Shown: positions 29,469-55,036 of the stretch, piece by piece
Numbering within the stretch: position 1 is the stretch's first letter
Layout: each line of letters starts with the position of its first letter
Assembly: GCA_035378955.1 (NCBI GenBank)
Contig: DAOSUS010000001.1
Location: forward strand, 20,580 to 84,579
Length of the DNA stretch: 64,000 bases
Direction of reading: 5' to 3'
From: Candidatus Hydrogenedens sp.
GTDB lineage: Bacteria; Hydrogenedentota; Hydrogenedentia; Hydrogenedentales; Hydrogenedentaceae
Notes under the pieces: generated by a model
What the model saw: the letters and a program-made list of their open reading frames with translations, nothing else
Told to the model about the DNA's origin: nothing
Database searches by the model: none
Made by a program: the position numbers and the translations under genes

Positions 29469-30040
29469 CCTATAGGAGATAAAGAATACATAGATTTTAG
29501 AGTCCTCATAATACCATAAAGGATACAAAAACACGAATGAAGAAGGAAAGAAAATCTCTTCCAACTTGACATACACTATTTTTTCTCTTTGTAGATTGGA
29601 TTTCAATTGGTCAAAAAATTATCACCACGAATTACACAAATAGACACGAATAAAAACAAATGGAAAAAAATCTATCATCCATTATTTCATTTAATGAACG
29701 GAACCGTCCTCGCTTCGGGTATTTTTAATTGGATAAATCTTTCAACCACAAAAGATACAAAGATTTTGCACAGAGTTCACAATGTAGGAGCGAAATATGT
29801 TTCGCTCGCACCTTCTCTGTGGTTTTTGTGTGAAATTTCCTTCGTGTCCTCTGTGATTAATTCTTTTTTACTACGAAGAGCACAGAGCTCTTGCACAAAG
29901 TGTACAAAGATGAAAGATCCCGAAGCAGGGATGCTTCATCTACAATCTTCTTGTCCTTATAGTCTTGTCAGGGCATGGCATGCCATGCCCTTACGATTGG
30001 AAAGAAAGAAAGTATAAATCTGCTACCTATCTCCTATAGG
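29469..30040. repeat. Region bounded by a perfect 12-bp inverted repeat (CCTATAGGAGAT at 29469-29480 / ATCTCCTATAGG at 30029-30040), enclosing a ~100-bp repeat element and a 20-bp palindrome
   Basis: Read directly from the sequence. The CCTATAGG core is itself palindromic. Confidence 0.5.
29971..29990. repeat. 20-bp perfect palindrome GGGCATGGCATGCCATGCCC
   Basis: Exactly self-complementary; GC-rich within an AT-rich intergenic region. Confidence 0.8.
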
Positions 30041-30108
30041 TTATCAAATAGGATATCTCTACTAAAACGGAAAGGAAATTATAAATCTATTACCTATGTT
30101 CTATTACC
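30014..30108 (+). promoter_or_regulatory. Array of direct repeats containing TACCTAT upstream of the hdr promoter
   Basis: ATAAATCTGCTACCTAT (30014-30030) and ATAAATCTATTACCTAT (30071-30087); tandem TTACCTATGTTCTA x2 (30081-30108). Confidence 0.45.
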
Positions 30109-30179
30109 TATGTTCTATAGAATTTATTTATTACGATATTTTGTTTTTAATATTTTAAATATAATTATTTTATATTTAT

Positions 30180-30209
30180 TTGACAATATATAGATAATAT
30201 TACTATAAT
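30180..30209 (+). promoter_or_regulatory. Candidate sigma70-type promoter of the hdr-mvh operon
   Basis: TTGACA (30180-30185), an 18-bp spacer, then TATAAT (30204-30209), about 65 nt upstream of the hdrC start. The region is AT-rich, so a chance match is possible. Confidence 0.3.
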
Positions 30210-30273
30210 ACAATATATTATTAGATATATATTTAAAAATAAAAAATTATAATTGTTTTTTATATAAAAAATT

Positions 30274-30873
30274 ATGGCGCAAGAACTAACCACTAAATCA
30301 GTATTATACGAAAGACAGTTAGATGCAAATTTTGCCAACCTAATACAATCGATGCCTGGAGGCGAAAATTTGAGAAGGTGTATTCAATGTGGGACTTGTA
30401 GTGCTACTTGCCCATTTTCCCATGTTATGGATTATACACCTCGCAAGATTATCTATTTAATTAGGGAAGGCTTTAAAGAAGAAGTCATGTCCAGTTTTAC
30501 ACCGTGGCTTTGTGCAAGTTGTTTTTCATGTAGAGTCCGCTGTCCAAAGGAAATTAAAATAACGGATTTAATGTATCTAATAAAGAGAGAAGCAATAAAG
30601 GATAACCATTATCCCCAAAAAGCACCTATTGTGCTTCTAACAAAAGAATCGGTGAAAATGATTCATAAAAACGGTAGAATTTCTGAAAGTTATTTAATGG
30701 GAATTGTTCTACTTAAAGTTAGTTTTCTAAAGTTGCTTCGCATGTCGGGTTTAGGATTAAAAATGCTGTTAACAGGTAGATTTACCTTAATCCCAGAAAA
30801 AATAAAAAGTCGTGGAGAACTAAAGAAAATATTAGCCTTCTCAAATAAAAAAGTAGAGGAAAACAGTAAATGA
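30274..30873 (+). CDS. hdrC: Heterodisulfide reductase subunit C-like (2x[4Fe-4S] ferredoxin domain)
   Basis: Two CxxCxxCxxxCP motifs (CIQCGTCSATCP and CASCFSCRVRCP); first gene of a translationally coupled six-gene operon. Confidence 0.8.
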   Translation: MAQELTTKSVLYERQLDANFANLIQSMPGGENLRRCIQCGTCSATCPFSHVMDYTPRKIIYLIREGFKEEVMSSFTPWLCASCFSCRVRCPKEIKITDLMYLIKREAIKDNHYPQKAPIVLLTKESVKMIHKNGRISESYLMGIVLLKVSFLKLLRMSGLGLKMLLTGRFTLIPEKIKSRGELKKILAFSNKKVEENSK

Positions 30874-31739
30874 AATACTTTTACTATCCAGGTTGCTCTT
30901 TAAGAGGTATGGGAAAGGCATATGAAGAATCATGGTTAAAAGTGTGCCAAAAAATAGGTCTTCAATTAGAAGAAGTTAAAGATTGGAATTGTTGTGGTTC
31001 TACAACTTACCTTGGGTTCGATGAAATTAAATCATTAGTTTTGGTTTCAAGAAACCTTGCTATGTTAGAGAAAGAAGGGGGTAGTGAGGTTATTACACCC
31101 TGTATTGCTTGTTATTATCTCTTTAATAGGACAAATCATAATTTAAGGGACTATCCTCAATTAAAAACAGAAACAAATAAGATGTTACAAGAAGTAGGAT
31201 TAACCTATTCTGGAAATGTCAAAGTTAGGCACCCTTTAGATATCTTAGTTAATGATGGCTGGATGGAGAAAATATCTCAAAACATAGAAAAGCGACTGGA
31301 GCGTTTTAAAGCTGTTTGTTATTATGGCTGTCAACTTCTCAGACCCTATTGCGAGTTTGATAACCCGAGCAATCCTAAAAATATGGATATATTAGTTGGC
31401 CTCACAGGAGTTGATGTTTTAGATTATCCATTAAAGACTAAATGTTGTGGAGCAATTATAACTTCAAATATTCCCGAAAAAGGACTTGAACTTGTTTATG
31501 TTTTATTAAAGGAAGCAAAGAAAAGAAATGCGGATTTTATCGTGGTTACATGTCCTTTATGTCAATTTAATTTAGAATTTCAGCAAGAAAAGATTATGAA
31601 AATATATGAGGAAGATATTGGGTTACCCATATTGTATTACACACAAGTTCTGGGGTTGGCAATGGGTCTCTCCTTAAAAGAGTTAGGAATTAGACGTTGT
31701 TTAACACTAACACCAGAATTTGAGCGAGCTTTAATATGA
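30870..31739 (+). CDS. hdrB: Heterodisulfide reductase subunit B-like (two CCG domains)
   Basis: Cys-rich CCG motifs (NCCGSTTY..., CYYGCQ...KCCGA); 4-nt overlaps on both sides. Confidence 0.8.
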   Translation: MKYFYYPGCSLRGMGKAYEESWLKVCQKIGLQLEEVKDWNCCGSTTYLGFDEIKSLVLVSRNLAMLEKEGGSEVITPCIACYYLFNRTNHNLRDYPQLKTETNKMLQEVGLTYSGNVKVRHPLDILVNDGWMEKISQNIEKRLERFKAVCYYGCQLLRPYCEFDNPSNPKNMDILVGLTGVDVLDYPLKTKCCGAIITSNIPEKGLELVYVLLKEAKKRNADFIVVTCPLCQFNLEFQQEKIMKIYEEDIGLPILYYTQVLGLAMGLSLKELGIRRCLTLTPEFERALI

Positions 31740-33727
31740 AAACAAATAACAAGGAAATACGAATCGGTTTTTATATCTGTCATTGTGGGACAAATATTGC
31801 AGGCGTAGTAGATGTAGACAAAGTAAGAGAGTTTATAGTGAAAAAAGATAATGTTGTGGTGTCACGTAACTACAAATATATGTGTTCTGACCCAGGTCAG
31901 GAGTTAATACAAAAAGATATTCAAGAACATAGGTTAAACAGAATTGTTGTGGCGTCCTGCTCGCCATTACTTCATGAAAAAACTTTTAGAAATACTTTAG
32001 AAAAAGCAGGTTTAAATCCATTCTATCTTCAAATGGTTAATGTTAGAGAACATGTAGCTTGGGTTCATTCAGATAATGAAAAAGCCACTGAAAAAGCAAA
32101 GGCTTTGTGCAATGCAGCAATAAATAGGGTTAGGCATAATAAACCTCTTGAGAAAAAAAGAGTATCATTTCACCAAGATGTTTTAATTATAGGAGGGGGT
32201 ATTGCAGGCATACATTCTGCTTTGACATTAGCCTCTGGTGGCAAGAAGGTTTATCTCGTTGAGAAAAAGCCTACCATTGGTGGACACATGGCAATGTTCG
32301 ACAAAACATTCCCTACTCTGGACTGTGCCGCTTGCATTTTAACTCCTAAAATGTCTGCCATTAAAGAAAATAAAAATATAATACTCTGGACCAATTCAGA
32401 AGTGATAAAGATAGAAGGATATGTGGGAAACTTCAAAGTTACGATTAAGAGAAATCCTCGATATGTTAGGGAAGATTTGTGTATAGGATGTGGGCAATGT
32501 GTAGAAAATTGTTTCTATAAAGAGGCAAAATTTCCCGATGAGTTTAATTTAGGCTTAAGCAAGCGAAAACCTATTTACATACCTTTTCCACAAGCCATAC
32601 CCAATTCCGCCATAATTGATGATAAGACATGCATCCATTTCAAGACGGGAAAATGTAAACAGATGTGCCTATCTGCCTGTGAACGCAATGCTATTGATTT
32701 CAATCAAAAAGAAGAGTTAAGAGAAATTCAGGTTGGTGCTATTATTGTTGCCACCGGCTTCAAAACATACGATCCTATAAAGGAGCCCGAATATGGTTAT
32801 GGAGTTTATCCTAATGTATATACTTCACTTGAAGTAGAAAGACTGATTAATGCGTCGGGTCCCACTGCCGGTGAGGTAATATTAAGAGATGGGACAAAAC
32901 CCAAATCAATTGGTATTATTCATTGCATTGGTTCACGCAGTGAAAAAGCCAATAAATGGTGTTCTCGTGTTTGTTGTATGTACTCTTTGAAACTTGCCTA
33001 TTTACTAAAAAAACATACTCATGCAGAAATTTACAATTTCTATATTGATATGCGTACCCCGGGTAAAATGTATGAAGAATTTTATGATAGGCTTTTAACA
33101 GAGGGGGTACATTTTATCCGTGGGAAGGTTGCCGAAGTAACAGATATTTCCCTTGTGAAGGAAGAAGAGGGAAAACTAATATTAAGAGTTGAAGATACTT
33201 TAGCAAGTGTCATTAGGAGAATCCCTGTAGATATGGTAGTTCTATCAGTAGGTTTGGAACCCTCCGAAGACACACAAAAACTCGCACATATATTAAACAT
33301 AGGTCTTTCCGCTGAAGGCTTTTTCCAGGAAAGGCACCCTAAATTGGCTCCTGTCAGTACCTTTTCAGAGGGCATTTTTATTGCTGGATGTTGTCAAGGA
33401 CCTAAAGACATCCCTGATACCGTAGCGCAAGCAGGTGCTTCTGCTGCGGAGGCAATGGCTATGATTGATGCAGGATATTTTGAAATAGAACCCATTACTG
33501 CTTATGTGCTGGATGAATTTTGTAGTGGATGTAAATCCTGCATTAATATTTGTCCTTACTCTGCTATTTCTTATGACGAATCGAAGAAAAAAGTATTTGT
33601 AAATGAGACTTTATGCAAAGGATGCGGTACTTGTAGTGCTACTTGTCCGAGTGGTGTTATGAAACAAAATCTTTTCGAGGATGAACAAATATTGAATGAA
33701 ATTGAAGGACTTCTTGTGTATGAGTGA
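31736..33727 (+). CDS. hdrA: Heterodisulfide reductase subunit A-like flavoprotein (FAD plus multiple FeS clusters)
   Basis: FAD-binding motif VLIIGGGIAGIHSA; several CxxCxxCxxxCP ferredoxin motifs; the N-terminal Cys cluster typical of HdrA. Confidence 0.85.
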   Translation: MKTNNKEIRIGFYICHCGTNIAGVVDVDKVREFIVKKDNVVVSRNYKYMCSDPGQELIQKDIQEHRLNRIVVASCSPLLHEKTFRNTLEKAGLNPFYLQMVNVREHVAWVHSDNEKATEKAKALCNAAINRVRHNKPLEKKRVSFHQDVLIIGGGIAGIHSALTLASGGKKVYLVEKKPTIGGHMAMFDKTFPTLDCAACILTPKMSAIKENKNIILWTNSEVIKIEGYVGNFKVTIKRNPRYVREDLCIGCGQCVENCFYKEAKFPDEFNLGLSKRKPIYIPFPQAIPNSAIIDDKTCIHFKTGKCKQMCLSACERNAIDFNQKEELREIQVGAIIVATGFKTYDPIKEPEYGYGVYPNVYTSLEVERLINASGPTAGEVILRDGTKPKSIGIIHCIGSRSEKANKWCSRVCCMYSLKLAYLLKKHTHAEIYNFYIDMRTPGKMYEEFYDRLLTEGVHFIRGKVAEVTDISLVKEEEGKLILRVEDTLASVIRRIPVDMVVLSVGLEPSEDTQKLAHILNIGLSAEGFFQERHPKLAPVSTFSEGIFIAGCCQGPKDIPDTVAQAGASAAEAMAMIDAGYFEIEPITAYVLDEFCSGCKSCINICPYSAISYDESKKKVFVNETLCKGCGTCSATCPSGVMKQNLFEDEQILNEIEGLLVYE

Positions 33728-34196
33728 ACAAAACTGGGAACCTAAAATCATTGCGTTTTTCTGTAATTGGTGTACTTATACCGCTGCAGACCTGGCAGGA
33801 GTATCTAAGTTATCCTATGCCCCCAATGTGAGGATAATTAGAGTAATGTGCTCAGGTAGAGTAGACCCTCAATTTGTATTGTCTGCCTTTGCGAATGGAG
33901 CCGACGGCGTTTTAATCGGGGGCTGTCACCCTGGAGATTGCCACTATAGCGAGGGAAATTATAAAACTCTCCGAAGAATCTCTTTGCTAAAGAAAATGTT
34001 AACTCAATTTGGAATTGAATATGATAGGGTGCGACTGGAATGGATATCCGGTGCAGAAGGTGAAAAGGTAAAGACTGTTATAAACGAAATGACAGACAAA
34101 ATAAGAAAATTAGGACCACTAAATCTACCTGAAAAATTTATTACCTGGGATAGAGAATTAGAAAAACTAGACAGAGAGTCTGAATATATAAATTGA
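33720..34196 (+). CDS. mvhD: Methyl-viologen-reducing hydrogenase delta subunit
   Basis: MvhD/FlpD pattern (IIAFFCNWCTYTAADLAG...RVMCSGRVDP...GGCHPGDCHY). The start is likely the ATG at 33720, giving an 8-nt overlap with hdrA. Confidence 0.8.
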   Translation: MSEQNWEPKIIAFFCNWCTYTAADLAGVSKLSYAPNVRIIRVMCSGRVDPQFVLSAFANGADGVLIGGCHPGDCHYSEGNYKTLRRISLLKKMLTQFGIEYDRVRLEWISGAEGEKVKTVINEMTDKIRKLGPLNLPEKFITWDRELEKLDRESEYIN

Positions 34197-34208
34197 GGAA
34201 ATAGAACA

Positions 34209-35186
34209 ATGTCTTCAAAGCCGAAAGTAGCATTTTATTGGTGTGCTTCTTGTGGAGGTTGTGAAGAAGCAGTAGTTGATTTGGCAGAAGATATACTTGA
34301 AGTTGTAAAGTTAGTAGACATTGTATTTTGGCCAGTTGCCATGGACTTTAAAAAGAGAGATGTGGAAGCATTACCAGATAAATCAATTAATATTGCATTT
34401 ATTAATGGGGCAATTCGAACCTCCGAACAAAAAGAAATTGCTCATTTATTGAGAGAAAAGTCCCATTTAATTGTAGCCTTTGGCTCTTGTGCCTGTTTTG
34501 GTGGCATTCCTGCTCTTGCTAACCTCTACAGTAAGTTTGAAGTTTTAAATGATGTTTATATTGAGTCTCCAACTGTTGATAACGATACTAAATTGCTCCC
34601 TCAAACTACATCTGCTGATAATAATGGAAAACAGTTAGAATTACCTAAATTTTATAACCAGGTAAGGGCTTTAGATGAGGTCATTTCGGTAGATTATTAC
34701 CTGCCGGGTTGTGCTCCAACACCGAAATTAATAGCTAATGCTGTAAATACATTACTCGGTGGTAATTTGCCAGCTGCAGGTTCTACATTACTACCGGACA
34801 TAGCCCTTTGTGAAGAATGCCCGAGAAAAGACTCTAAACCCACAGACCTTTCGATTACAGAATATAAAAGGATTTGTGAAAATCTTGTGGACTCTGAAAA
34901 ATGTTTATTGGCTCAAGGGTTTCTATGCTTGGGTCCCGTAACTCGTGGTGGCTGCGAGGCTCTATGTATAAATGGAAATATGCCTTGTACAGGATGTACT
35001 GGTCCCACATCGAGAATAGTAGACTTTGGCGCAAAAGCAGTATCTATGTTTGCATCGTTGTCCAGTGGAAAAAACGAAGAGGAAATAGAGAAAAACTATG
35101 CACAAATAATAGACCCTGTAGGCACTTTTTATAGATATCATCTTTCAAAAAGTTTATTAAAAGGAAAACTTGAGAGGGGAATATAG
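34209..35186 (+). CDS. mvhG: [NiFe] hydrogenase small subunit (MvhG-type)
   Basis: N-terminal Cys cluster WCASCGGCEE and a further FeS Cys set; it sits immediately upstream of the large subunit. Confidence 0.8.
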   Translation: MSSKPKVAFYWCASCGGCEEAVVDLAEDILEVVKLVDIVFWPVAMDFKKRDVEALPDKSINIAFINGAIRTSEQKEIAHLLREKSHLIVAFGSCACFGGIPALANLYSKFEVLNDVYIESPTVDNDTKLLPQTTSADNNGKQLELPKFYNQVRALDEVISVDYYLPGCAPTPKLIANAVNTLLGGNLPAAGSTLLPDIALCEECPRKDSKPTDLSITEYKRICENLVDSEKCLLAQGFLCLGPVTRGGCEALCINGNMPCTGCTGPTSRIVDFGAKAVSMFASLSSGKNEEEIEKNYAQIIDPVGTFYRYHLSKSLLKGKLERGI

Positions 35187-35189
35187 AGT

Positions 35190-36662
35190 ATGGAACAACA
35201 ACTAAAAAGGAAAGTCTCTATTGACCCGATTACTCGTTTAGAAGGGCATGGAAGAATAGAAATATTTTTTGATGATAATAAAAATGTCGAAAAAGCATAT
35301 TTACAGATTCCTGAGTTAAGAGGTTTTGAAAAATTTTGTGAAGGTAGACTTCCGGAAGATATGCCCCAAATAACTTCGAGAATTTGTGGTGTGTGTCCAA
35401 CCGCACATCACATAGCAAGTGCAAAGACGCTTGATAAATTATTTAATGTAGAGTCTACTCCTACTGCGAAAAAAATAAGGGAACTCGTTTACAATGCATT
35501 TATGTTTGAAGACCATGCTCTTCACTTCTACATTCTCGGAGGTCCTGATTTTATTGTTGGCACCGGCGCACCAAAAGAATTAAGAAATGTAATTGGTGTA
35601 ATTCAAAAAGTAGGAACTGATATTGCAAAACAACTAATTTCTATTCGAAAGAGAAATCGGGAACTTATTTCTTATTTAGGGGGTAAAGTAATACATCCCG
35701 TATTAGGTTTACCAGGTGGAGTGGCTAAAGGTATTGATGAAGATGAGTTATCAAAAATTAAGCAATTGGCTCAGGATAACTTAGAATTTGCCCTTTTTAC
35801 TCTTGACACATTTAAGCGAATCATACTTGAAAACCACGAGTATTTAAATTTAGTTACTTCTCCGGCATATACTCATCAGACTTACTATATGGGGATGGTA
35901 GACTCTGGAAATAGAGTAAACTTTTACGACGGAATGATAAGGGTTGTAGACCCAAATGGAAAAGAGTATGTAAAATTCGACCCTCGGGAATACCGAAACC
36001 ATATAGGTGAACATGTAGAGCCTTGGACATATATAAAGTTTTGCTATCTTAAAAATGTTGGTTGGAAAGGCTTCAAAGATGGCATAGACAGTGGAATTTA
36101 TTGCGTAGCCCCACTTGGGCGATTAAACGCATGTGAAAGTATGGCTACTCCTAAGGCACAACAGGCTTATGAAGAGTATATAAAAACTTTAGGTAAACCG
36201 GTGCATTACACACTTGCTACTCATTGGGCACGGATTATTGAAATAATATATGCAAGCGAACGAATGATAGAACTTGTAAATGACCCTGAGATAACGGGAA
36301 AAGATTTGAGAAATATTCCTTCTAAAGTGGGAGAAATTGGAATTGCAGCAGTTGAAGCCCCTAGAGGCACTTTATTCCACCATTATGAAACAGACTCAAA
36401 AGGTTTACTTAGGAAAGTCAACCTCATCGTGGCTACACAAAATAACGCGGGGAGAATATCTCTTAGTATAGATAAATCTGCAAAGGAGTTAATGAAAAAT
36501 GGGGATGGGAGTATTACTGAGGAACTGCTCAATAAAATAGAAATGGCTTTTAGAGCCTATGACCTCTGTTTTGGCTGTGCTACCCATTACCTTCCAAGCA
36601 AACTTCCTTTCATAATTATCCTGCGAAATTCGCAAGGAAAAATAATAAAGAGAATTTTCTAA
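35190..36662 (+). CDS. mvhA: [NiFe] hydrogenase large subunit (MvhA-type)
   Basis: N-terminal RxCGxC (RICGVCPTAHH) and C-terminal DLCFGCATH Ni-binding motifs, with a C-terminal extension for endopeptidase processing. Confidence 0.9.
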   Translation: MEQQLKRKVSIDPITRLEGHGRIEIFFDDNKNVEKAYLQIPELRGFEKFCEGRLPEDMPQITSRICGVCPTAHHIASAKTLDKLFNVESTPTAKKIRELVYNAFMFEDHALHFYILGGPDFIVGTGAPKELRNVIGVIQKVGTDIAKQLISIRKRNRELISYLGGKVIHPVLGLPGGVAKGIDEDELSKIKQLAQDNLEFALFTLDTFKRIILENHEYLNLVTSPAYTHQTYYMGMVDSGNRVNFYDGMIRVVDPNGKEYVKFDPREYRNHIGEHVEPWTYIKFCYLKNVGWKGFKDGIDSGIYCVAPLGRLNACESMATPKAQQAYEEYIKTLGKPVHYTLATHWARIIEIIYASERMIELVNDPEITGKDLRNIPSKVGEIGIAAVEAPRGTLFHHYETDSKGLLRKVNLIVATQNNAGRISLSIDKSAKELMKNGDGSITEELLNKIEMAFRAYDLCFGCATHYLPSKLPFIIILRNSQGKIIKRIF

Positions 36663-36886
36663 AAAATCATTCCTTAATGTTTCAAAATTATAAACCTAAA
36701 TAGGAGCGGTAAGAAAAAACAGCGCTTTTTACCTTCAATTCTCTGCTTTTACCTCTCCAATTCTATAAAAAATAAAACATAGGTAACAGGTTTATATTTT
36801 CTCGGATAATGAATCCAGTTTACATTCCCACTCAAACTTAAATAAAGAATAAAGTAGGTATTACCTATAATCTATAAAGATTCTTG

Positions 36887-39805
36887 TTATTTGATGTCTA
36901 TCTGGACATCGGAGGGTGTAGTGATGAGAGACCAGAGCGTTTTCCAATCGGCGTTGATGTAGAAAATAGGTGCTAAATTCATGTTGGGCGTTGTTAAAAG
37001 TAATGAAACGGTTGCTTGATTATCCTTAAATCCTACGGTCAATTCTCCATTGGTAAACGGTTTCGGGTCTTCTTTTCCTAATAATTTTTCTAATTGCTTT
37101 TGAACGATACTAACATTCTGTAAATATAAAATTAATCGAAGAAGAACATCACGGTTAATGGTCAATCCCTCGGGACATAGAAGACTAAAATTCCCCTCGA
37201 CAAGTTGTCCCTGCGTAAAATTTATATTTGCATCAAAATTACCATTAGCCCGTCCAGAAAGATTGACCCATGGAGGTTGAACTTCCGCAGTAAATTGAGA
37301 CAAATCAACACCTGCATATTCACCCGCAATGTTCCCTATAAGTGAACCCTCTTTTTTCTGAACAATCCCTTGTGTATCCAATTTGCCTTTCCATAAATTT
37401 CCATTCATGCGGGTTATTTCTATTTCGGGAGGTAGGAATTTTAATCGCAAACTATTTTCTATTTGAGAAATCTTCACTTTCTGTAAGGCAATCTCATCTA
37501 TTTTTATATCAACGGCTAAATCTGTATTCCTTAAATTTTGAGGCTGTAATTGTGATACAAAATTATTTACCTGTATTTGCCATGCAGGTATGCCCAATTT
37601 TGAGATATTCACATTCCATTCTATCTCTCCATTTTTGACCTGATTATCTTTATATTCAAAATTTTTCAAAGAGAGATAATAAGTTCCCTGGCTCTCTTGC
37701 GAAATTCCCCAATCCTGTAAATCGTTAAAAGTTCCTTTAACATCCAGATTTTGAATGTTTACAGCAAGGTTGGGGTTATCCGAAGTCAGGAGTATCCTGC
37801 CTTTTTGAATTTTTGCCAGTTCACAATTCTTAAATCCCAACATTAAATTCTCAATCTCAAATGTATAATCCGAAAAATCCCCAGTTATATCCGTATTAAA
37901 ACATAAAGGAATTCCTTCTGGAAGCATATATCCACCTATGCCTAAACCTTCTCCAGAACCTGACCCCTGTATTTTAATTCTCAAACTTCCATTCCAATGA
38001 AGTTTCCCATGAAACTCCGCTTTGCCCGGAATATAAAAAGGAAGGAATTCCGAAGAAAGGGTCGAAAGATAAATTTTTGTTTTCATATCCCCTTCTAACG
38101 ATACTGGAAACATATATAATTTGCAAGGATTTAATTCAAAATCAGTAGAATTCTCGGAGGAGAGCCGAAAAGCACCCACAACCGTTTCCAAGTTCTGAAT
38201 TATTCCCTGAAAACCAAATTCCGACGGCACAATAGGTAGATATTCTTCATCCTCTTTTTCTGGTGATAACACCCCTTTGAATTGTAAGTCTACCTTATTC
38301 CATTCCTTCCCTTTTATATCCACTTCTATATCTGCAAGTGTTGTTTCTAATGCCTTCTTTACTAAGGAAGGAGTTAACAACTGTATAAATTTTGCTGGAA
38401 ACTTCTCTGTTTGAATATGCGAAATAAAAGTGGTAAAAGGAATCCATTCAGCCGAAAAATGAATAGGATAGGAGAGGACATTCACATCACCCGACCATTT
38501 TATTTGGTTAGAACCCTTATTATCCGCAATAAATTTTACATCACTATTAAGTCGGATACTATCTATATTAGGAATTGATAGTTTCCCCTGAGTGTTCCCT
38601 TCCAGAACAGGTAAAATCCCTTGAAGCGCCAAAGAACATTCTACAGAAAAAGGCTCTATTTGTTTGAGTAATAGTGTATTGTATAAATAAGGGGATACCT
38701 CCTGAATAGTTTTCCCTTGTATAGTCCCACAAGAAAAATCTAAATAGGTATTCTGGTTAACATGATTATATTTCCAGTTCATCTTCCATACAGGGGCTTT
38801 ATCGCTATTCATTACCACTTCGGTTGCTTTCTCATCTTCCTTGTATTGAGAATGGATATGTATTTCAGAAGTATATCGGAGCCATGGTTTTTCTTTATCA
38901 CCTATTGTTAATGAAGAAAAGAACATTTCCCCGTTAATATTCTCAGGTATCCACCGAGCACCTTGATAATAAACACTACCCTGAAGATGGGATACCTGAA
39001 TTTTTTGCCAGTCGACAGGTAAAGAAAACATAGAATAGATTAACGGCGACAAGGATTGAGATACATTTTCATCAAGGGACAAGGACATATCTTCTATATT
39101 CACTCTTTGCATAGAGTTATCAAAGTTTACTTTTCCCTGTGCAAGCATATAAGGTGCGAACTGGATATTCATTCCTATTTCTTGAGACTCCTTCTGGAGT
39201 TGGTAATGTATATCCACCGTACCTGTAAGCGATTCTTTCTGCCCATTATAGGTAACTTCCATAATAGCACCCGTAGAGGAAAGGGAAATAAGGTTTTGGG
39301 CTTTGTCAATAGTAAGTGGAATACCTGATACAAACAATGTCCTTTCGTGATTATTAACAAACATAGAAATATTCTTAACAAACAACTTTTGAGGTAGATA
39401 GGTAAAAAAAGATTGGAAATTAGGAACATTCGTTTCTTGATTGGTTTTCCTTTCTTCCTTCAGTTTATTTGAAAATGGAGATGTTGTATCAACATGAATA
39501 TTACACGATTCAATGGAAACACATAACTTTTGTGGCTTTCTTAAAGATAATTGTATCTGAATATTTTGAAACTCTAAATCTGTGTTATAATCATTCAATT
39601 GAACAGAAATATTTTTTAGAGAAATATTAGGAAAAATAGAGAGACCTGATAACTTAATGAAAATATTTTTTGTGGGTTTAAAAGATACAGAGTCTTTTAT
39701 TAAAAATAGTGACCAAACGCCGAAAACAGATATAATAATTATAGATAAGAAAACAACAATGCTGATGGCGGTATATTTTATTATTTGAATTAACTTTTTT
39801 CTCAC
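36887..39805 (-). CDS. Giant envelope protein with an N-terminal TM anchor, AsmA/TamB-like (putative outer-membrane biogenesis/lipid transport)
   Basis: 972 aa, a single N-terminal TM (ISIVVFLSIIIISVFGVW), then long beta-rich repetitive sequence typical of the AsmA family. No catalytic motif. Confidence 0.45.
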   Translation of the reverse strand: MRKKLIQIIKYTAISIVVFLSIIIISVFGVWSLFLIKDSVSFKPTKNIFIKLSGLSIFPNISLKNISVQLNDYNTDLEFQNIQIQLSLRKPQKLCVSIESCNIHVDTTSPFSNKLKEERKTNQETNVPNFQSFFTYLPQKLFVKNISMFVNNHERTLFVSGIPLTIDKAQNLISLSSTGAIMEVTYNGQKESLTGTVDIHYQLQKESQEIGMNIQFAPYMLAQGKVNFDNSMQRVNIEDMSLSLDENVSQSLSPLIYSMFSLPVDWQKIQVSHLQGSVYYQGARWIPENINGEMFFSSLTIGDKEKPWLRYTSEIHIHSQYKEDEKATEVVMNSDKAPVWKMNWKYNHVNQNTYLDFSCGTIQGKTIQEVSPYLYNTLLLKQIEPFSVECSLALQGILPVLEGNTQGKLSIPNIDSIRLNSDVKFIADNKGSNQIKWSGDVNVLSYPIHFSAEWIPFTTFISHIQTEKFPAKFIQLLTPSLVKKALETTLADIEVDIKGKEWNKVDLQFKGVLSPEKEDEEYLPIVPSEFGFQGIIQNLETVVGAFRLSSENSTDFELNPCKLYMFPVSLEGDMKTKIYLSTLSSEFLPFYIPGKAEFHGKLHWNGSLRIKIQGSGSGEGLGIGGYMLPEGIPLCFNTDITGDFSDYTFEIENLMLGFKNCELAKIQKGRILLTSDNPNLAVNIQNLDVKGTFNDLQDWGISQESQGTYYLSLKNFEYKDNQVKNGEIEWNVNISKLGIPAWQIQVNNFVSQLQPQNLRNTDLAVDIKIDEIALQKVKISQIENSLRLKFLPPEIEITRMNGNLWKGKLDTQGIVQKKEGSLIGNIAGEYAGVDLSQFTAEVQPPWVNLSGRANGNFDANINFTQGQLVEGNFSLLCPEGLTINRDVLLRLILYLQNVSIVQKQLEKLLGKEDPKPFTNGELTVGFKDNQATVSLLLTTPNMNLAPIFYINADWKTLWSLITTPSDVQIDIK

Positions 39806-46218: not shown

Positions 46219-47325
46219 CTATAATTTCACAGGCATTATAATATTTATATATCTCTCATCTCCTTCCGCCTCAGGAGTTAATGGCTTTATAACACAAGGA
46301 CTACCTCCATCTTTCATAGACATTACTAATTTATCTGATGTTATATGGTCAACAATATCTACCAAATATTCAATGTTAAATCCTGTTTTAACTTCATCTC
46401 CTTCATATTCAACTTCTACTGTATCTGAAAATTCACCAACTTCTGGATTTTGAACCTCTATATCCATACGACCTTTCTGGACAAGAACCTTCACAGACAT
46501 AAACTTCATCGCTTCCGCCCTCCTCAAAACGGATTTCCACTCCTCCGCCTTTATTATTACATGCTTACTATAATCCCTTGGTATAACAACTTCATAATTC
46601 GGGAATGTCCCTTCTATCAAACTACTTGTTAACCTTGTTTTATTAAACACAAATGATACCCTTGATTCACCATCAAACACCTTTATATCTCCTGTCCCAT
46701 CCATCTGGCTCATTAGTTCCTTCACCGTCCTCTCCGGTATCGTTATACGAACATTCCTTTTTACAGGTACACATTCCCTTTCTCTCCTAAGACTCATTCT
46801 CTTCCCATCCGTTGCAACCACAGTAAGATTTCCACCATTTATCTCAAACAAAACCCCTGTCAACGCATATCTTGATTCCTCAGTACACACTGCAAACGCT
46901 ACCTTACGAAACATATCCAACAACAATGACTCCGAAATAACTATAGGTTCCACATCATCTACAAACATTACAGGTGGAAATTCATCGGGAGGCATTGTTA
47001 CATATTTCACTTCTGTCCGACCACTCTTAACTACTACTGAAGTTTCACTCATAGATTTAATAATCACATCACCTTTTGGTAAATTAGAAAGCAAATTCGA
47101 AAATAGATGAGCCCTTAATGTAACCCTTCCTTCTTCTTCTATCTCACATTCATCTAACTCTTGCTCAATAGTCATCCGTAAATCTGTGCTTGTTAATTTT
47201 AATAAACCATCTTCTGCAGTTATTAAAATAGAAGATAGAATTGGTAATGATGATTTTGCAGGAACTGCGTTTCTCACCTTTGATAATGCTTCATTTAATT
47301 TTTCCTGTTTTACTGTTATTTTCAT
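46219..47325 (-). CDS. dnaN: DNA polymerase III beta sliding clamp
   Basis: MKITVKQEKLNEALSKV...LPILSSILI typical DnaN N-terminus; three-domain length (368 aa). Confidence 0.9.
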   Translation of the reverse strand: MKITVKQEKLNEALSKVRNAVPAKSSLPILSSILITAEDGLLKLTSTDLRMTIEQELDECEIEEEGRVTLRAHLFSNLLSNLPKGDVIIKSMSETSVVVKSGRTEVKYVTMPPDEFPPVMFVDDVEPIVISESLLLDMFRKVAFAVCTEESRYALTGVLFEINGGNLTVVATDGKRMSLRRERECVPVKRNVRITIPERTVKELMSQMDGTGDIKVFDGESRVSFVFNKTRLTSSLIEGTFPNYEVVIPRDYSKHVIIKAEEWKSVLRRAEAMKFMSVKVLVQKGRMDIEVQNPEVGEFSDTVEVEYEGDEVKTGFNIEYLVDIVDHITSDKLVMSMKDGGSPCVIKPLTPEAEGDERYINIIMPVKL

Positions 47326-54916: not shown

Positions 54917-55036
54917 AGGAATTTGTCTAAAACTCCAACTTGTCCAACAGGTCTAACACATCCAGCACCCCCTTAAAAAATTTGACAATAACCCTACCTA
55001 TGTGCATTATAATAGAAAAAGACCCAAGGACCTGAT

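What the first reader, a model, noticed from the sequence alone, without database searches (positions are those of the whole stretch)
29469..30110. Repeat-dense regulatory region upstream of the hdr operon: 12-bp inverted repeats, direct-repeat iterons with a TACCTAT core, and a 20-bp perfect palindrome
- A perfect inverted pair CCTATAGGAGAT / ATCTCCTATAGG (29469-29480 and 30029-30040) brackets about 570 bp.
- Inside lies a GC-rich 20-bp perfect palindrome, GGGCATGGCATGCCATGCCC (29971-29990).
- Downstream are 17-bp direct repeats ATAAATCT(G/A)(C/T)TACCTAT (30014, 30071) and a tandem TTACCTATGTTCTA x2 (30081-30108), about 70 nt upstream of a candidate -35/-10.
- TACCTATGT-like cores recur at 36861-36870 (the other island border) and at 54998-55006 (upstream of the Sel1 gene).
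This looks like a transcription-factor binding array (iterons) controlling hydrogenase expression, or the remains of a MITE-like element.
Basis: seen in the sequence. Interest (0 to 1): 0.5.

Follow-up and report, generated by a model that had tools for sequence, protein, structure and literature searches.

The report
Small mobile element upstream of hdr
The repeats upstream of the hdr-hydrogenase operon are the ends and inner hairpins of a 588-bp non-coding mobile element (a MITE) that a close relative lacks, so they are selfish DNA and not an hdr control array.

Summary
All the reported repeats exist; three coordinates are off by 3-10 nt. They are not specific to hdr.

- **What it is.** Window 29461-30048 is a discrete 588-bp non-coding element. 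It has imperfect terminal inverted repeats, 23 nt clear and about 40 nt in better-preserved paralogues. A TA dinucleotide flanks each end.
- **Empty site.** A close relative (L131, 94% DNA identity across the operon) lacks exactly this block and keeps both flanks.
- **Other copies.** Paralogous elements with the same ends lie at unrelated loci in Hydrogenedentes metagenomes. L163 is 74% identical over 544 nt. There are about 16 distinct sequence variants of the right end at roughly 15 genomic places, and similarity between copies always stops at ...CCTATAGGTTATCAnn|TA.
The 'iteron' (TATAAATCTnYTACCTAT...) is the terminal repeat. The 20-bp palindrome is a conserved hairpin just inside the right end.
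- **Other terminal-repeat copies.** 30054-30120 is an older lone copy carrying a recent 14-nt tandem duplication. 36757-36885 is a short relic between two convergent genes. The 54998 site is chance.
- **The hdr promoter.** A perfect sigma-70 consensus (30180-30209) lies outside the element and is conserved in the relative.
- **No partner found.** No transposase gene was located. The TA flanks suggest an IS630-type partner.
- **In passing.** The internal CACAGAG-octamer hairpin belongs to inverted arms found in many phyla. In four loci these arms tightly bracket a single GxxExxY nuclease gene.

The parts
29459..29460 (.). TA flanking the left end (putative copy of the duplicated target)
   Evidence: Sequence. 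The same TA-element-TA arrangement is seen in L163. L131 has one TA near the empty junction.
29461..30048 (+). 588-bp non-coding MITE-like element
   Evidence: Absent from relative L131 with both flanks retained. 74% identical over 544 nt to a copy at an unrelated locus in L163. No Pfam hit for its ORFs.
29461..29505 (+). Left terminal inverted repeat, degenerate.
   Evidence: Inverted-repeat pair I2, 23 nt at 87%. Weak nhmmer hit to the terminal-repeat profile at 29462-29481. End-to-end comparison.
29624..29658 (+). CACGAAT-type half arm (CACCACGAATTACACAAATAGACACGAAT)
   Evidence: Sequence. Aligned with L163.
29701..29719 (+). GAACCGTCCTCGCTTCGGG, the 5' partner of an outer stem with 29919-29937
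   Evidence: Inverted-repeat pair I7, 19 nt at 79%. Paired in both minimum-energy folds. The same module is present at 61356-61374 and in L068.
29739..29869 (+). Long imperfect hairpin unit built from CACAGAG/CACAAAG/CACGAAG octamer arms. A REP-like GTAG-hairpin sits at its tip (29785-29812).
   Evidence: 72% identical to 61356-61520. nhmmer E=2e-38, with dozens of copies in Hydrogenedentes loci. Consensus hairpin across 13 copies. Fold z-scores -5.3 and -5.6. The arm core occurs in genomes of many phyla.
29873..29915 (+). Extra copy of the left-arm type (CGAAGAGCACAGAGCTCTTGCACAAAGTGTACAAAGATG)
   Evidence: Direct repeats D1 and D11. nhmmer hit at 29865-29909.
29919..29937 (+). CCCGAAGCAGGGATGCTTC, the 3' partner of the outer stem. 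It is also a small terminator-like hairpin on the minus strand.
29967..29994 (.). Subterminal G+C-rich palindrome (core 29971-29990)
   Evidence: Conserved at a similar distance (about 15-25 nt) from the right terminal repeat in paralogues. Pair changes on both sides are seen: CG to UA in 2 copies and GC to AU in 1.
29995..30048 (+). Right terminal inverted repeat (TACGATTGGAAAGAAAG-TATAAATCTGCTACCTATCTCCTATAGGTTATCAAA).
   Evidence: nhmmer E=6e-13 at 30006-30048. The right limit of similarity among non-orthologous copies is always +33 to +40 after TATAAATCT.
30049..30050 (.). TA flanking the right end
   Evidence: TA sits at this fixed offset in 7 of 16 distinct right ends, against a background of about 0.08-0.11; P about 1e-4 to 1e-3.
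30054..30120 (+).
   Evidence: nhmmer hits at 30073-30104 (E=3.5e-6) and 30100-30120. L131 has one degenerate copy and no duplication.
30180..30209 (+). Consensus sigma-70-type promoter TTGACA-18-TATAAT of hdrC (start codon at 30274). It lies outside the element.
   Evidence: 12 of 12 consensus matches. Conserved in L131.
36757..36885 (.). Probable relic of about 125 nt with its interior deleted: two facing terminal-repeat-like ends (36772-36802 on the minus strand, 36856-36885 on the plus strand). It lies between the convergent ends of mvhA and a 972-aa ORF.
   Evidence: blastn 87% over 31 nt. nhmmer E=6.5e-8 for 36772-36802. Core-motif pair 80 nt apart. Sequence. The right-hand end is weak.
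61394..61522 (+). Second copy of the octamer-arm hairpin unit in the window, with no MITE terminal repeat beside it
   Evidence: No terminal-repeat hit in that spacer.

Best explanation
**What it is.** The 1138-bp spacer between a divergent sodium:solute symporter gene and hdrC was originally about 550 bp. It was enlarged when a 588-bp non-autonomous transposable element (a MITE) inserted at 29461-30048.

**Shown.**
- The element has imperfect terminal inverted repeats. The consensus, seen best in paralogues, is about 40 nt: TGA(T/A)(A/C)A(C/A)CTAT(A/G)G(G/T)ACATAGGTAACA..AGATTT(T/A)TA.
- It is flanked by TA on both sides and encodes no recognisable protein.
- It is packed with hairpins: a G+C-rich palindrome just inside the right end, and a roughly 130-nt hairpin made of CACAGAG-type octamers.
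- It is multi-copy in Hydrogenedentes genomes and is absent from the same site in a close relative.
One is the element's right end (30012-30048). One is an older lone copy just downstream (30073-30120), with a recent slipped-strand duplication of 14 nt. One is a relic at the 3' end of the operon (36772-36802).

**Inferred.**
- A transposase encoded elsewhere in the genome bound the terminal repeats and moved the element by cut-and-paste into a TA, duplicating it. This is the signature of IS630/Tc1-mariner-type enzymes.
- The element is selfish DNA and is essentially neutral for hdr. It landed about 130 nt upstream of an intact consensus promoter and 325 nt from the symporter start codon.
- Its hairpins may incidentally insulate the two divergent genes or block read-through.
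- The octamer-arm hairpin is a separate palindromic unit that became nested in, or captured by, the MITE. It also occurs without the terminal repeats (61394-61522).
For: **Empty site.** L131 is 94.1% identical over 6.6 kb of the operon. It aligns to 29345-29414 (83%) and 30054-30283 (76%) but lacks about 29461-30050. When that block is removed, the window sequence is collinear with L131, with a junction of GTTGTTTATT--TAGGATATCTC against GTTGTTTATTCATCTTATATCTC.

**Paralogues at unrelated loci.**
- L163, between an H+-pyrophosphatase gene and a 292-aa ORF I did not annotate, is 74% identical over 544 nt. It has both terminal repeats and TA on both sides.
- L143/L148, next to fliQ, are 68-70% identical over 400 nt.
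- L144/L158, L162 and L164 are 480-520-nt elements with clear terminal repeats of about 40 nt.

**Sharp common end.** A metagenome scan with the terminal-repeat pattern gave 26 stretches, with about 16 distinct end sequences at roughly 15 places. Pairwise similarity between non-orthologous copies always ends at +33 to +40.

**TA flanks.** TA lies at the fixed junction offset in 7 of 16 right ends and 7 of 10 ends of full copies. P is about 1e-3 to 1e-5.

**No coding content.** No Pfam family matches any ORF in the spacer.

**No known RNA.** No Rfam family matches.

**Assembly behaviour.** Contigs of the same species break inside or beside the repeats. L008 starts at 29790, and L131 ends just before 36757.

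**Promoter.** It lies outside the element and is conserved.
Against: - No autonomous partner (a transposase gene flanked by the same terminal repeats) was found.
- The TA flanks are degraded in several copies (L158, L162, L164 on one side). In AT-rich DNA, TA could belong to the terminus and not be a duplicated target.
- The L131 empty site differs from the reconstructed one by small indels. Flanks are only 72-83% identical, so the junction is defined to about +/-5 nt.
- The window's own left terminal repeat is degenerate (nhmmer E=0.9).
- At 588 bp with repeats of about 40 nt, the element is above the sizes called typical for prokaryotic MITEs: under 500 bp, with repeats of about 4-30 bp (PMC10969869).
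- Copies differ in how far similarity extends inward from the right end (-38, -105, -230 or -500 nt). That mosaic make-up also recalls REP/BIME-type clusters.
Confidence: 0.76

Rival explanations
1. A REP/BIME-like mosaic. The spacer would be a cluster of short palindromic modules (GTAG + hairpin units, octamer arms and other pieces) spread by a REP-associated Y1 (RAYT / IS200-IS605-type) transposase acting on single-stranded hairpins. On this view it is not a cut-and-paste MITE bounded by terminal repeats, and the apparent terminal repeats are just two modules in opposite orientation.
For: - Many modules begin with GTAG followed by a G+C-rich hairpin. Examples are GTAGGGGCACGGCATGCCGTGCCC, GTAGGGGCGAAACATGTTTCGCCC and GTAGAGGCGAAAAATCTTTCGCCTCTAC. 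From my own knowledge (Nunvar 2010; Ton-Hoang 2012), this is the hallmark of REP sequences.
- Modules occur in variable combinations and as lone copies.
- The 1.3-kb spacer in AWNW01000027 is a junkyard of such modules.
Against: - Five full-length copies share both ends in inverted orientation, about 40 nt long, at a consistent 480-590 nt spacing.
- The outer boundary is sharp and TA is enriched at the junction.
- The empty site in L131 matches the whole 588-bp unit, not a single module.
- No Y1 transposase gene was seen, though the search was very limited.
Confidence: 0.12
2. A transcription-factor binding array. The repeated TATAAATCTnYTACCTAT motifs upstream of the hdr promoter would be operator or activator sites for a regulator of the hdr-mvh operon, possibly co-opted from transposon ends.
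For: - Three motif copies lie within 110 nt (30012-30120), about 60-170 nt upstream of the -35 hexamer.
- A further copy lies at the other end of the operon.
- MITEs are known to supply regulatory sites in other bacteria, for example the IHF site and promoters of Correia elements (PMC10969869).
Against: - The motif is found at roughly 15 unrelated places.
- The copy at 36772-36802 lies between two convergent gene ends, where no promoter is expected.
- L131 keeps the promoter but has only one degenerate copy, with 13 of 16 core bases matching, which is no better conserved than the surrounding spacer.
- L134 has only a 95-nt spacer; I saw no motif in it and nhmmer found none.
- The tandem 14-mer is a lineage-specific duplication.
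Confidence: 0.07
3. A family of structured non-coding RNA genes. The hairpin-rich block would be transcribed and act as an sRNA or cis-acting RNA element, for example as a stabiliser, a terminator or an RNase III target.
For: - Very stable predicted folds, with z-scores of -5.3 and -5.6.
- A conserved long hairpin across 13 copies, and a palindrome with a few compensatory changes.
Against: - Both strands fold about equally well, so no transcribed strand can be assigned.
- Almost no covariation: only 1 of 25-26 pairs changes on both sides.
- No Rfam match.
- No convincing promoter or terminator inside the element: 8 promoter-like sites against 7.3 expected, and one weak terminator-like site on the minus strand.
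- The transposon hallmarks explain the conservation.
Confidence: 0.05

Closest known systems
RUP (repeat unit of pneumococcus) and Nezha: bacterial MITEs thought to be mobilised by IS630-family transposases
   Same: - Non-coding, multi-copy and intergenic.
- Terminal inverted repeats.
- TA at both junctions.
- Insertion/empty-site polymorphism between relatives.
- RUP clusters with other small repeats and inserts into them (PMC10969869). Here terminal-repeat copies likewise lie next to each other.
   Different: - RUP is about 107 bp and Nezha about 130 bp (from my own knowledge). This element is 480-590 bp with longer terminal repeats of about 40 nt.
- No IS630-like partner with matching ends was found here.
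- No sequence similarity was tested or expected.
Correia repeat-enclosed elements (CREE/NEMIS) of Neisseria
   Same: - A small element bounded by terminal inverted repeats, with a TA duplication (from my own knowledge).
- Often sits just upstream of genes.
- Transcripts fold into long hairpins.
- Can carry promoters, IHF sites and RNase III sites (PMC10969869).
   Different: - Correia elements are about 100-200 bp, with outward promoters that have been demonstrated experimentally.
- Here the hdr promoter is outside the element and older than the insertion.
- No outward consensus promoter was detected.
BrickBuilt MITE of Porphyromonas gingivalis (a MITE with an internal minisatellite; PMC4596501) and the modular BOX elements of pneumococcus
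   Same: A MITE whose interior is made of short repeated modules.
   Different: Here the internal modules are inverted octamer arms forming hairpins, not a head-to-tail minisatellite. I did not read the details of that paper.
REP / BIME / REPIN elements mobilised by RAYT transposases
   Same: - GTAG + G+C-rich hairpin modules.
- Mosaic clusters in intergenic spacers and between convergent genes.
   Different: - REP units are about 35 nt, lack long terminal inverted repeats and leave no TA flanks.
- The unit that is present or absent at the hdr site is 588 bp.
- RAYT gene: not found, and barely searched.
Intervening sequences of 23S rRNA and hairpin-flanked small ORFs (four-helix-bundle 'S23p' proteins; GxxExxY/PDDEXK_3 proteins)
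   Same: The internal octamer arms are the same sequence family that brackets GxxExxY ORFs in Acidobacteriota, Bacteroidota and Planctomycetota loci. The layout is a long inverted stem enclosing a small ORF, as in Leptospira rRNA intervening sequences (from my own knowledge).
   Different: - The window copies carry no ORF and are not in rRNA.
- A link between these arms and rRNA intervening sequences was recalled, not tested.

Membership tests
MITE (miniature inverted-repeat transposable element) | Terminal inverted repeats at both ends | tested here: met
   23 nt at 87% in the window. About 40 nt in paralogues L163, L158, L162 and L164.
MITE (miniature inverted-repeat transposable element) | Flanking target-site duplication | tested here: inconclusive
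   TA lies on both sides in the window and in L163. It is found at 7 of 10 ends of full copies and 7 of 16 right ends, P about 1e-3 to 1e-5. A 2-nt repeat in AT-rich DNA cannot be proven to be a duplication. L131 has a single TA near the empty junction.
MITE (miniature inverted-repeat transposable element) | Small and without a transposase gene | tested here: met
   588 bp. ORFs of 136, 72 and 70 aa have no Pfam hit. This is slightly above the 'typically under 500 bp' of PMC10969869.
MITE (miniature inverted-repeat transposable element) | Multiple copies at unrelated genomic sites | tested here: met
   About 16 distinct end sequences at roughly 15 places, and at least 5 full-length copies, in Hydrogenedentes metagenomes and AWNW01 contigs.
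MITE (miniature inverted-repeat transposable element) | Presence/absence polymorphism with an intact empty site | tested here: met
   L131 lacks 29461-30050 and keeps both flanks.
MITE (miniature inverted-repeat transposable element) | Autonomous partner element with matching terminal repeats | tested here: not met
   None found in the loci held, in the window ORFs tested, or in viral, phage and plasmid collections. The whole genome could not be searched.
IS630 / Tc1-mariner-derived element | TA target, duplicated on insertion | tested here: inconclusive
   TA is enriched at junctions. From my own knowledge, some IS5-group elements also give 2-3-nt duplications containing TA.
IS630 / Tc1-mariner-derived element | Terminal repeats similar to those of a DDE (DD34-35E/D) transposase-encoding IS630 member | not testable with these tools
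   No ISfinder-type library is available and no partner element was found.
Iteron / transcription-factor operator array | Repeats specific to, and conserved in, the orthologous regulatory region | tested here: not met
   L131 has one degenerate copy. L134 has a 95-nt spacer in which I saw no copy and nhmmer found none. The motif occurs at many unrelated loci.
Iteron / transcription-factor operator array | A cognate DNA-binding protein | not testable with these tools
   This needs DAP-seq or EMSA.
REP/BIME (RAYT-associated) | Unit of about 35 nt: GTAG followed by an imperfect palindrome | tested here: met
   Several modules have this form. The defining consensus is from my own knowledge.
REP/BIME (RAYT-associated) | A RAYT (Y1 transposase) gene in the genome, flanked by the REPs | not tested
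   Only a few window ORFs were scanned, with no Y1_Tnp hit.
Any Rfam RNA family | Match at the family's gathering score | tested here: not met
   No hits in the window or in 18 related loci. Only chance-level hits appeared at E<=5 in the spacer.

The most novel reading that the evidence does not exclude
The roughly 130-nt octamer-arm hairpin inside the element (29739-29869, and again at 61394-61522) may be an ORF-less miniature of an undescribed, cross-phylum class of tiny selfish cassettes.

In their complete form these cassettes consist of one GxxExxY (PD-(D/E)XK, PDDEXK_3) gene. It is enclosed between 30-33-nt inverted arms made of three tandem CACAGAGG octamers ending in TTAA. The nuclease would recognise or cut the hairpin or cruciform formed by its own arms and so mobilise both the full and the miniature forms.

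On this reading the hdr spacer holds two nested generations of selfish DNA.
Probability: 0.25. Interest if true: 0.7.

Novelty: new member of a known kind. Interest (0 to 1): 0.3.

Why it matters
**For the hdr-mvh operon it matters little.** The repeats should not be read as hydrogenase regulatory logic. The conserved control region is the roughly 220 nt downstream of 30054, which includes a perfect sigma-70 promoter.

**For annotation of Hydrogenedentes MAGs it helps.**
- It defines a previously unannotated repeat family, with its terminal-repeat consensus, subterminal palindrome and internal hairpin.
- The family breaks assemblies, inflates spacers to about 1.1 kb and generates spurious ORFs. 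The peptides 'GHGMPCPY' and 'TEDTKE' are two of these reading-frame artefacts.

**The side observation could matter more.** The same octamer arms bracket GxxExxY genes in distant phyla. GxxExxY/PDDEXK_3 is a large family of unknown function, and a conserved inverted-arm context gives a testable hypothesis for what it does.

Tried and rejected
- **hdr-mvh as cargo of a composite transposon bounded by the 31-nt inverted copies at 30075-30105 and 36771-36801.** Rejected. Both copies point their outer ends (…GGTTATCA|TA) toward the operon, so the operon lies outside both elements. Other loci (L156, L159) show the same back-to-back arrangement around unrelated genes.
- **Deletion in L131 instead of insertion in the window.** Unlikely. 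The missing block coincides with the inverted repeats, and whole paralogous copies exist elsewhere.
- **Known RNA families.** Rfam at gathering scores on the window and on 18 loci, and an E-value scan of the spacer, gave nothing.
- **Assigning a transcribed strand from G-U against A-C asymmetry.** Both orientations of the 13-copy alignment fold, with consensus energies of -11.7 and -23.1 kcal/mol. No strand could be assigned.
- **Promoter inside the terminal repeat.** I saw no acceptable -35/-10 spacing by eye, and the scan found no excess of promoter-like sites. A sigma-54 reading of the palindrome fails at the -12 element (by eye).
- **Search for an autonomous partner.**
  - Inverted terminal-repeat pairs 0.3-4 kb apart: only the 437-475-nt MITEs turned up.
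  - ORFs next to terminal repeats are ordinary genes.
  - The one multi-copy ORF family near terminal repeats is type IV pilin-like (prepilin N-terminus), not a transposase.
  - Viral contigs, plasmids and phages gave no match.
- **Literature.** Nothing was found on the repeat sequences, GxxExxY, PDDEXK_3 or TIGR04256 beyond a catalogue entry of 'function unknown'.
- **The 54995-55003 motif.** It lies inside the spacer of a promoter-like site and has no match to the terminal-repeat profile. I treat it as chance.
- **Sharp drop in identity at the repeat borders, which would suggest an 'island'.** Not real. The 94% figure is dominated by coding DNA; intergenic DNA on both sides of the terminal-repeat copies is 72-83% identical.
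Full report
**1. Observation.**

The finding lies in the 1138-bp spacer 29136-30273. On one side is a sodium:solute symporter gene (27567-29135, minus strand). On the other is hdrC, the first gene of an hdrCBA-mvhDGA operon that ends at 36662.
- the 12-nt inverted pair (29469-29480 and 30029-30040);
- the 20-nt palindrome (29971-29990);
- two direct repeats of about 33 nt (30005-30037 and 30072-30104, 82% identical);
- a tandem 14-mer (30086-30113).

Three coordinates are off by 3-10 nt: 30071 should be 30081; 30081-30108 should be 30090-30117; 54998 should be 54995.

Statistically, the 12-nt inverted pair is unremarkable on its own. 18% of shuffles of the spacer reach 12 nt. It extends to 23 nt at 87%. 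The palindrome is unusual: 1% of shuffles give a palindrome of at least 20 nt, and the exact sequence never occurs in shuffled windows.

**2. Source.**

The window comes from MAG GCA_964588155.1. It is 99.2% identical to a contig of Candidatus Hydrogenedens terephthalaticus (AWNW01000038) over 1.4 kb. Seven other assemblies of the same species carry the same spacer at 99.6% identity or better, so they say nothing about conservation.

**3. The repeats are not specific to hdr.**

A self-comparison showed two things:
- 29701-29865 is 72% identical to 61356-61520, in another 1.1-kb spacer.
- 30075-30105 matches 36771-36801 on the opposite strand at 87%.

Contigs of H. terephthalaticus carry further copies of both kinds of sequence. 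These include the palindrome together with the 'iteron' as one contiguous module (L068, L095, L016).

A metagenome scan with the pattern TATAMAYCTNYTACCTATNTYYTAT returned 26 stretches from a handful of metagenomes. They give about 16 distinct end sequences at roughly 15 genomic places. The usual layout in these copies, read left to right, is:
- an octamer arm;
- (A)AGTAGGGGCACGGCATGCCGTGCCC;
- TTCTACGATTGGGAAGAAAG;
- TATAAATCTGTTACCTATGTCCTATAGGTTATCA.

After that point the flanks differ between copies. Pairwise similarity among non-orthologous copies ends at +33 to +40 after TATAAATCT in essentially every pair. That is a sharp common terminus.

**4. A discrete element with an empty site.**

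L131 comes from a close relative: HdrB is 95% identical, and DNA is 94.1% identical over 30102-36720. It aligns with 29345-29414 and with 30054-30283 but lacks the block in between. Removing 29461-30050 from the window makes the two sequences collinear. The junction reads GTTGTTTATT--TAGGATATCTC in the edited window against GTTGTTTATTCATCTTATATCTC in L131.

L163 holds a paralogue that is 74% identical over 544 nt. It sits between an H+-pyrophosphatase gene and a 292-aa ORF I did not annotate, and it has both ends. L143/L148 (next to fliQ), L144/L158, L162 and L164 hold related elements of 480-520 nt.

Setting left ends beside reverse-complemented right ends gives a terminal inverted repeat of about 40 nt: TGA(T/A)(A/C)A(C/A)CTAT(A/G)G(G/T)ACATAGGTAACA…AGATTT(T/A)TA.

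In the window and in L163, TA directly flanks both ends: TA|ATTGAGTACC…GGTTATCAAA|TA and TA|TTTGAATAAC…GATTATCAAG|TA. Across all copies, TA sits at that fixed offset in 7 of 10 ends of full copies and 7 of 16 distinct right ends. The background frequency is 0.08-0.11, giving P of about 1e-3 to 1e-5.

No ORF in the spacer matches Pfam. These are the defining features of a MITE as summarised in PMC10969869. The size (588 bp) and the repeat length are above what that review calls typical.

**5. Interior.**

The element holds the following, from left to right:
- a CACGAAT-type half arm (29624-29658);
- an outer stem (29701-29719 pairing with 29919-29937);
- a roughly 130-nt hairpin (29739-29869) whose arms are tandem CAC(A/G)(A/G)AG octamers, tipped by a GTAG + hairpin unit (29785-29812);
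- an extra arm copy (29873-29915);
- the subterminal palindrome (29967-29994).

Evidence on these structures:
- Folding is far more stable than for shuffled sequence on both strands (z = -5.3 and -5.6).
- Thirteen copies of the hairpin unit share the long stem. Only one pair shows a change on both sides, and both orientations fold, so no RNA strand can be inferred.
- The palindrome keeps its pairing through a few double changes, for example GGCATGG/CCATGCC against GGCACGG/CCGTGCC.
- The hairpin unit also occurs without any terminal repeat (61394-61522). It is therefore an independent unit nested in the MITE.

**6. The octamer arms are cross-phylum (side finding).**

By my estimate, about 4 would be expected by chance (1.2e12 positions / 4^19). 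The hits come from many phyla: Verrucomicrobiota, Acidobacteriota, Planctomycetota, Gemmatimonadota, Chloroflexota, Fibrobacterota, Bacteroidota, Nitrospirota, Chlamydiota and others.

- In 38 hits a matching left arm lies 60-170 nt upstream, forming an ORF-less hairpin.
- In four loci (L047, L063, L067, and L107 from Limnoglobus roseus) the arms enclose a single 123-127-aa ORF. The layout is TTAACCACAGAGGACACAGAGGnnCACAGAGG … CCTCTGTGnnCCTCTGTGTCCTCTGTGGTTAA, with the left arm ending at or within about 35 nt of the start codon (abutting it in L047 and L063).
- That ORF is a GxxExxY protein (TIGR04256, E = 2e-44).
- I found no Rfam family and no paper describing this. PF13366/PDDEXK_3 is listed as 'function unknown' in PMC3424549.

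**7. The other motif sites.**

- 30054-30120 is a lone copy of the terminal repeat that predates the split from L131, which has one degenerate copy. The 14-nt tandem duplication is specific to the window lineage.
- 36772-36802 (minus strand) and a weaker copy at 36856-36885 (plus strand) face each other as left and right ends about 100 nt apart. They lie between two convergent genes and are probably a relic with its interior deleted.
- The outer ends of the copies at 30.1 kb and 36.8 kb both point at the operon, so the operon is not transposon cargo.
- The 54995 site has no match to the terminal-repeat profile and sits in a promoter-like spacer. I treat it as chance.

**8. Mechanism and effect.**

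Shown: the anatomy, the copy number, the empty site, and the position relative to the promoter.

Inferred:
- The element moved by cut-and-paste through a transposase supplied in trans. TA target duplication points to the IS630/Tc1-mariner type.
- The effect on hdr is neutral. The perfect TTGACA-18-TATAAT promoter at 30180-30209 lies 130 nt beyond the element and is conserved in L131.
- The hairpins might incidentally block read-through between the divergent genes. One terminator-like site lies on the minus strand at 29917-29932.

**9. Rivals.**

- **REP/BIME-type mosaic (0.12).** It fits the GTAG hairpins and the modular make-up. It does not fit the long terminal repeats, the TA junctions or the 588-bp empty site.
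- **Operator or iteron array (0.07).** It fails on specificity and on conservation.
- **ncRNA family (0.05).** It lacks strand bias, covariation and transcription signals.

**10. Limits.**

- No autonomous partner was found.
- The empty-site junction is resolved only to about +/-5 nt.
- The TA duplication cannot be proven from two nucleotides.

Verdict: the repeats are real and belong to an ordinary kind of element. This is a new MITE family in a poorly studied phylum, not an hdr control array.

Noticed in passing
L047, L063, L067, L107 (arms around a 123-127-aa ORF); L011-L130 generally; window 29739-29869 and 61394-61522: Inverted arms of three tandem CACAGAGG octamers ending in TTAA occur in genomes of many bacterial phyla. 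In four loci the arms tightly bracket a single GxxExxY (TIGR04256/PDDEXK_3) gene. In 38 others they form ORF-less hairpins of 60-170 nt. There is no Rfam family and I found no paper. Other loci pair the arm with different tandem 7-8-mers (ACAGGAT, TTTGCGA, GATCACGA, CAGTGGT, AGATTTGA).
   Followed up: partly
window 61022-62142: A second 1.1-kb spacer, lying between a PASTA/GLUG-domain gene and a DNA methylase gene. It holds a hairpin unit (61394-61522) and a perfect REP-like hairpin, GTAGAGGCGAAAAATCTTTCGCCTCTAC (61302-61330). Synteny with H. terephthalaticus contig AWNW01000038 (99.2% identity) stops abruptly at 61548, just after the repeat. That suggests a rearrangement or an assembly breakpoint.
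   Followed up: partly
L068:1-700 and L042:7300-8000 (AWNW01000027, about 23.4-24.7 kb): A 1.3-kb spacer made almost entirely of the same modules: octamer arms, GTAG hairpins, a CCTTGCCAGGCAGGC hairpin and a terminal-repeat copy. It also holds a run of tandem (T)ATGGGAC(n) octamers. It lies upstream of a 423-aa ORF that looks like a phage portal protein (not tested).
   Followed up: no
window, 24 sites listed: The 7-mer TACCTAT occurs 24 times against 8.4 expected; no shuffle out of 100 reaches 24. Only about 7 of these sites lie in terminal-repeat copies. The rest are in coding DNA and remain unexplained.
   Followed up: no
L140, L149, L156, L159 (ORFs of 296-345 aa next to terminal-repeat copies): A multi-copy family of type IV pilin-like proteins lies beside several terminal-repeat copies. 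They share the N-terminus GFTLIELLVVIAIIGILAAILLPAL and a C-terminal HxxxGGxNVLYxDGH motif. They are not transposases, and the association may be coincidental.
   Followed up: partly
window 36887-39805 (minus strand): A 972-aa ORF immediately downstream of the operon and the relic has no Pfam match at all.
   Followed up: no
window 46219-47325 (minus strand): dnaN (DNA polymerase III beta subunit) is in the window, so the chromosomal origin region may be nearby. This is unrelated to the repeats.
   Followed up: no
L134:4389-4520: In a more distant relative (HdrB 63% identical), hdrC and hdrB are separated by a 130-nt gap, and the operon continues into flavin reductase and flavo-diiron genes next to an Rrf2 regulator. 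Upstream of hdrC there is only a 95-nt spacer after a Zip transporter gene.
   Followed up: no
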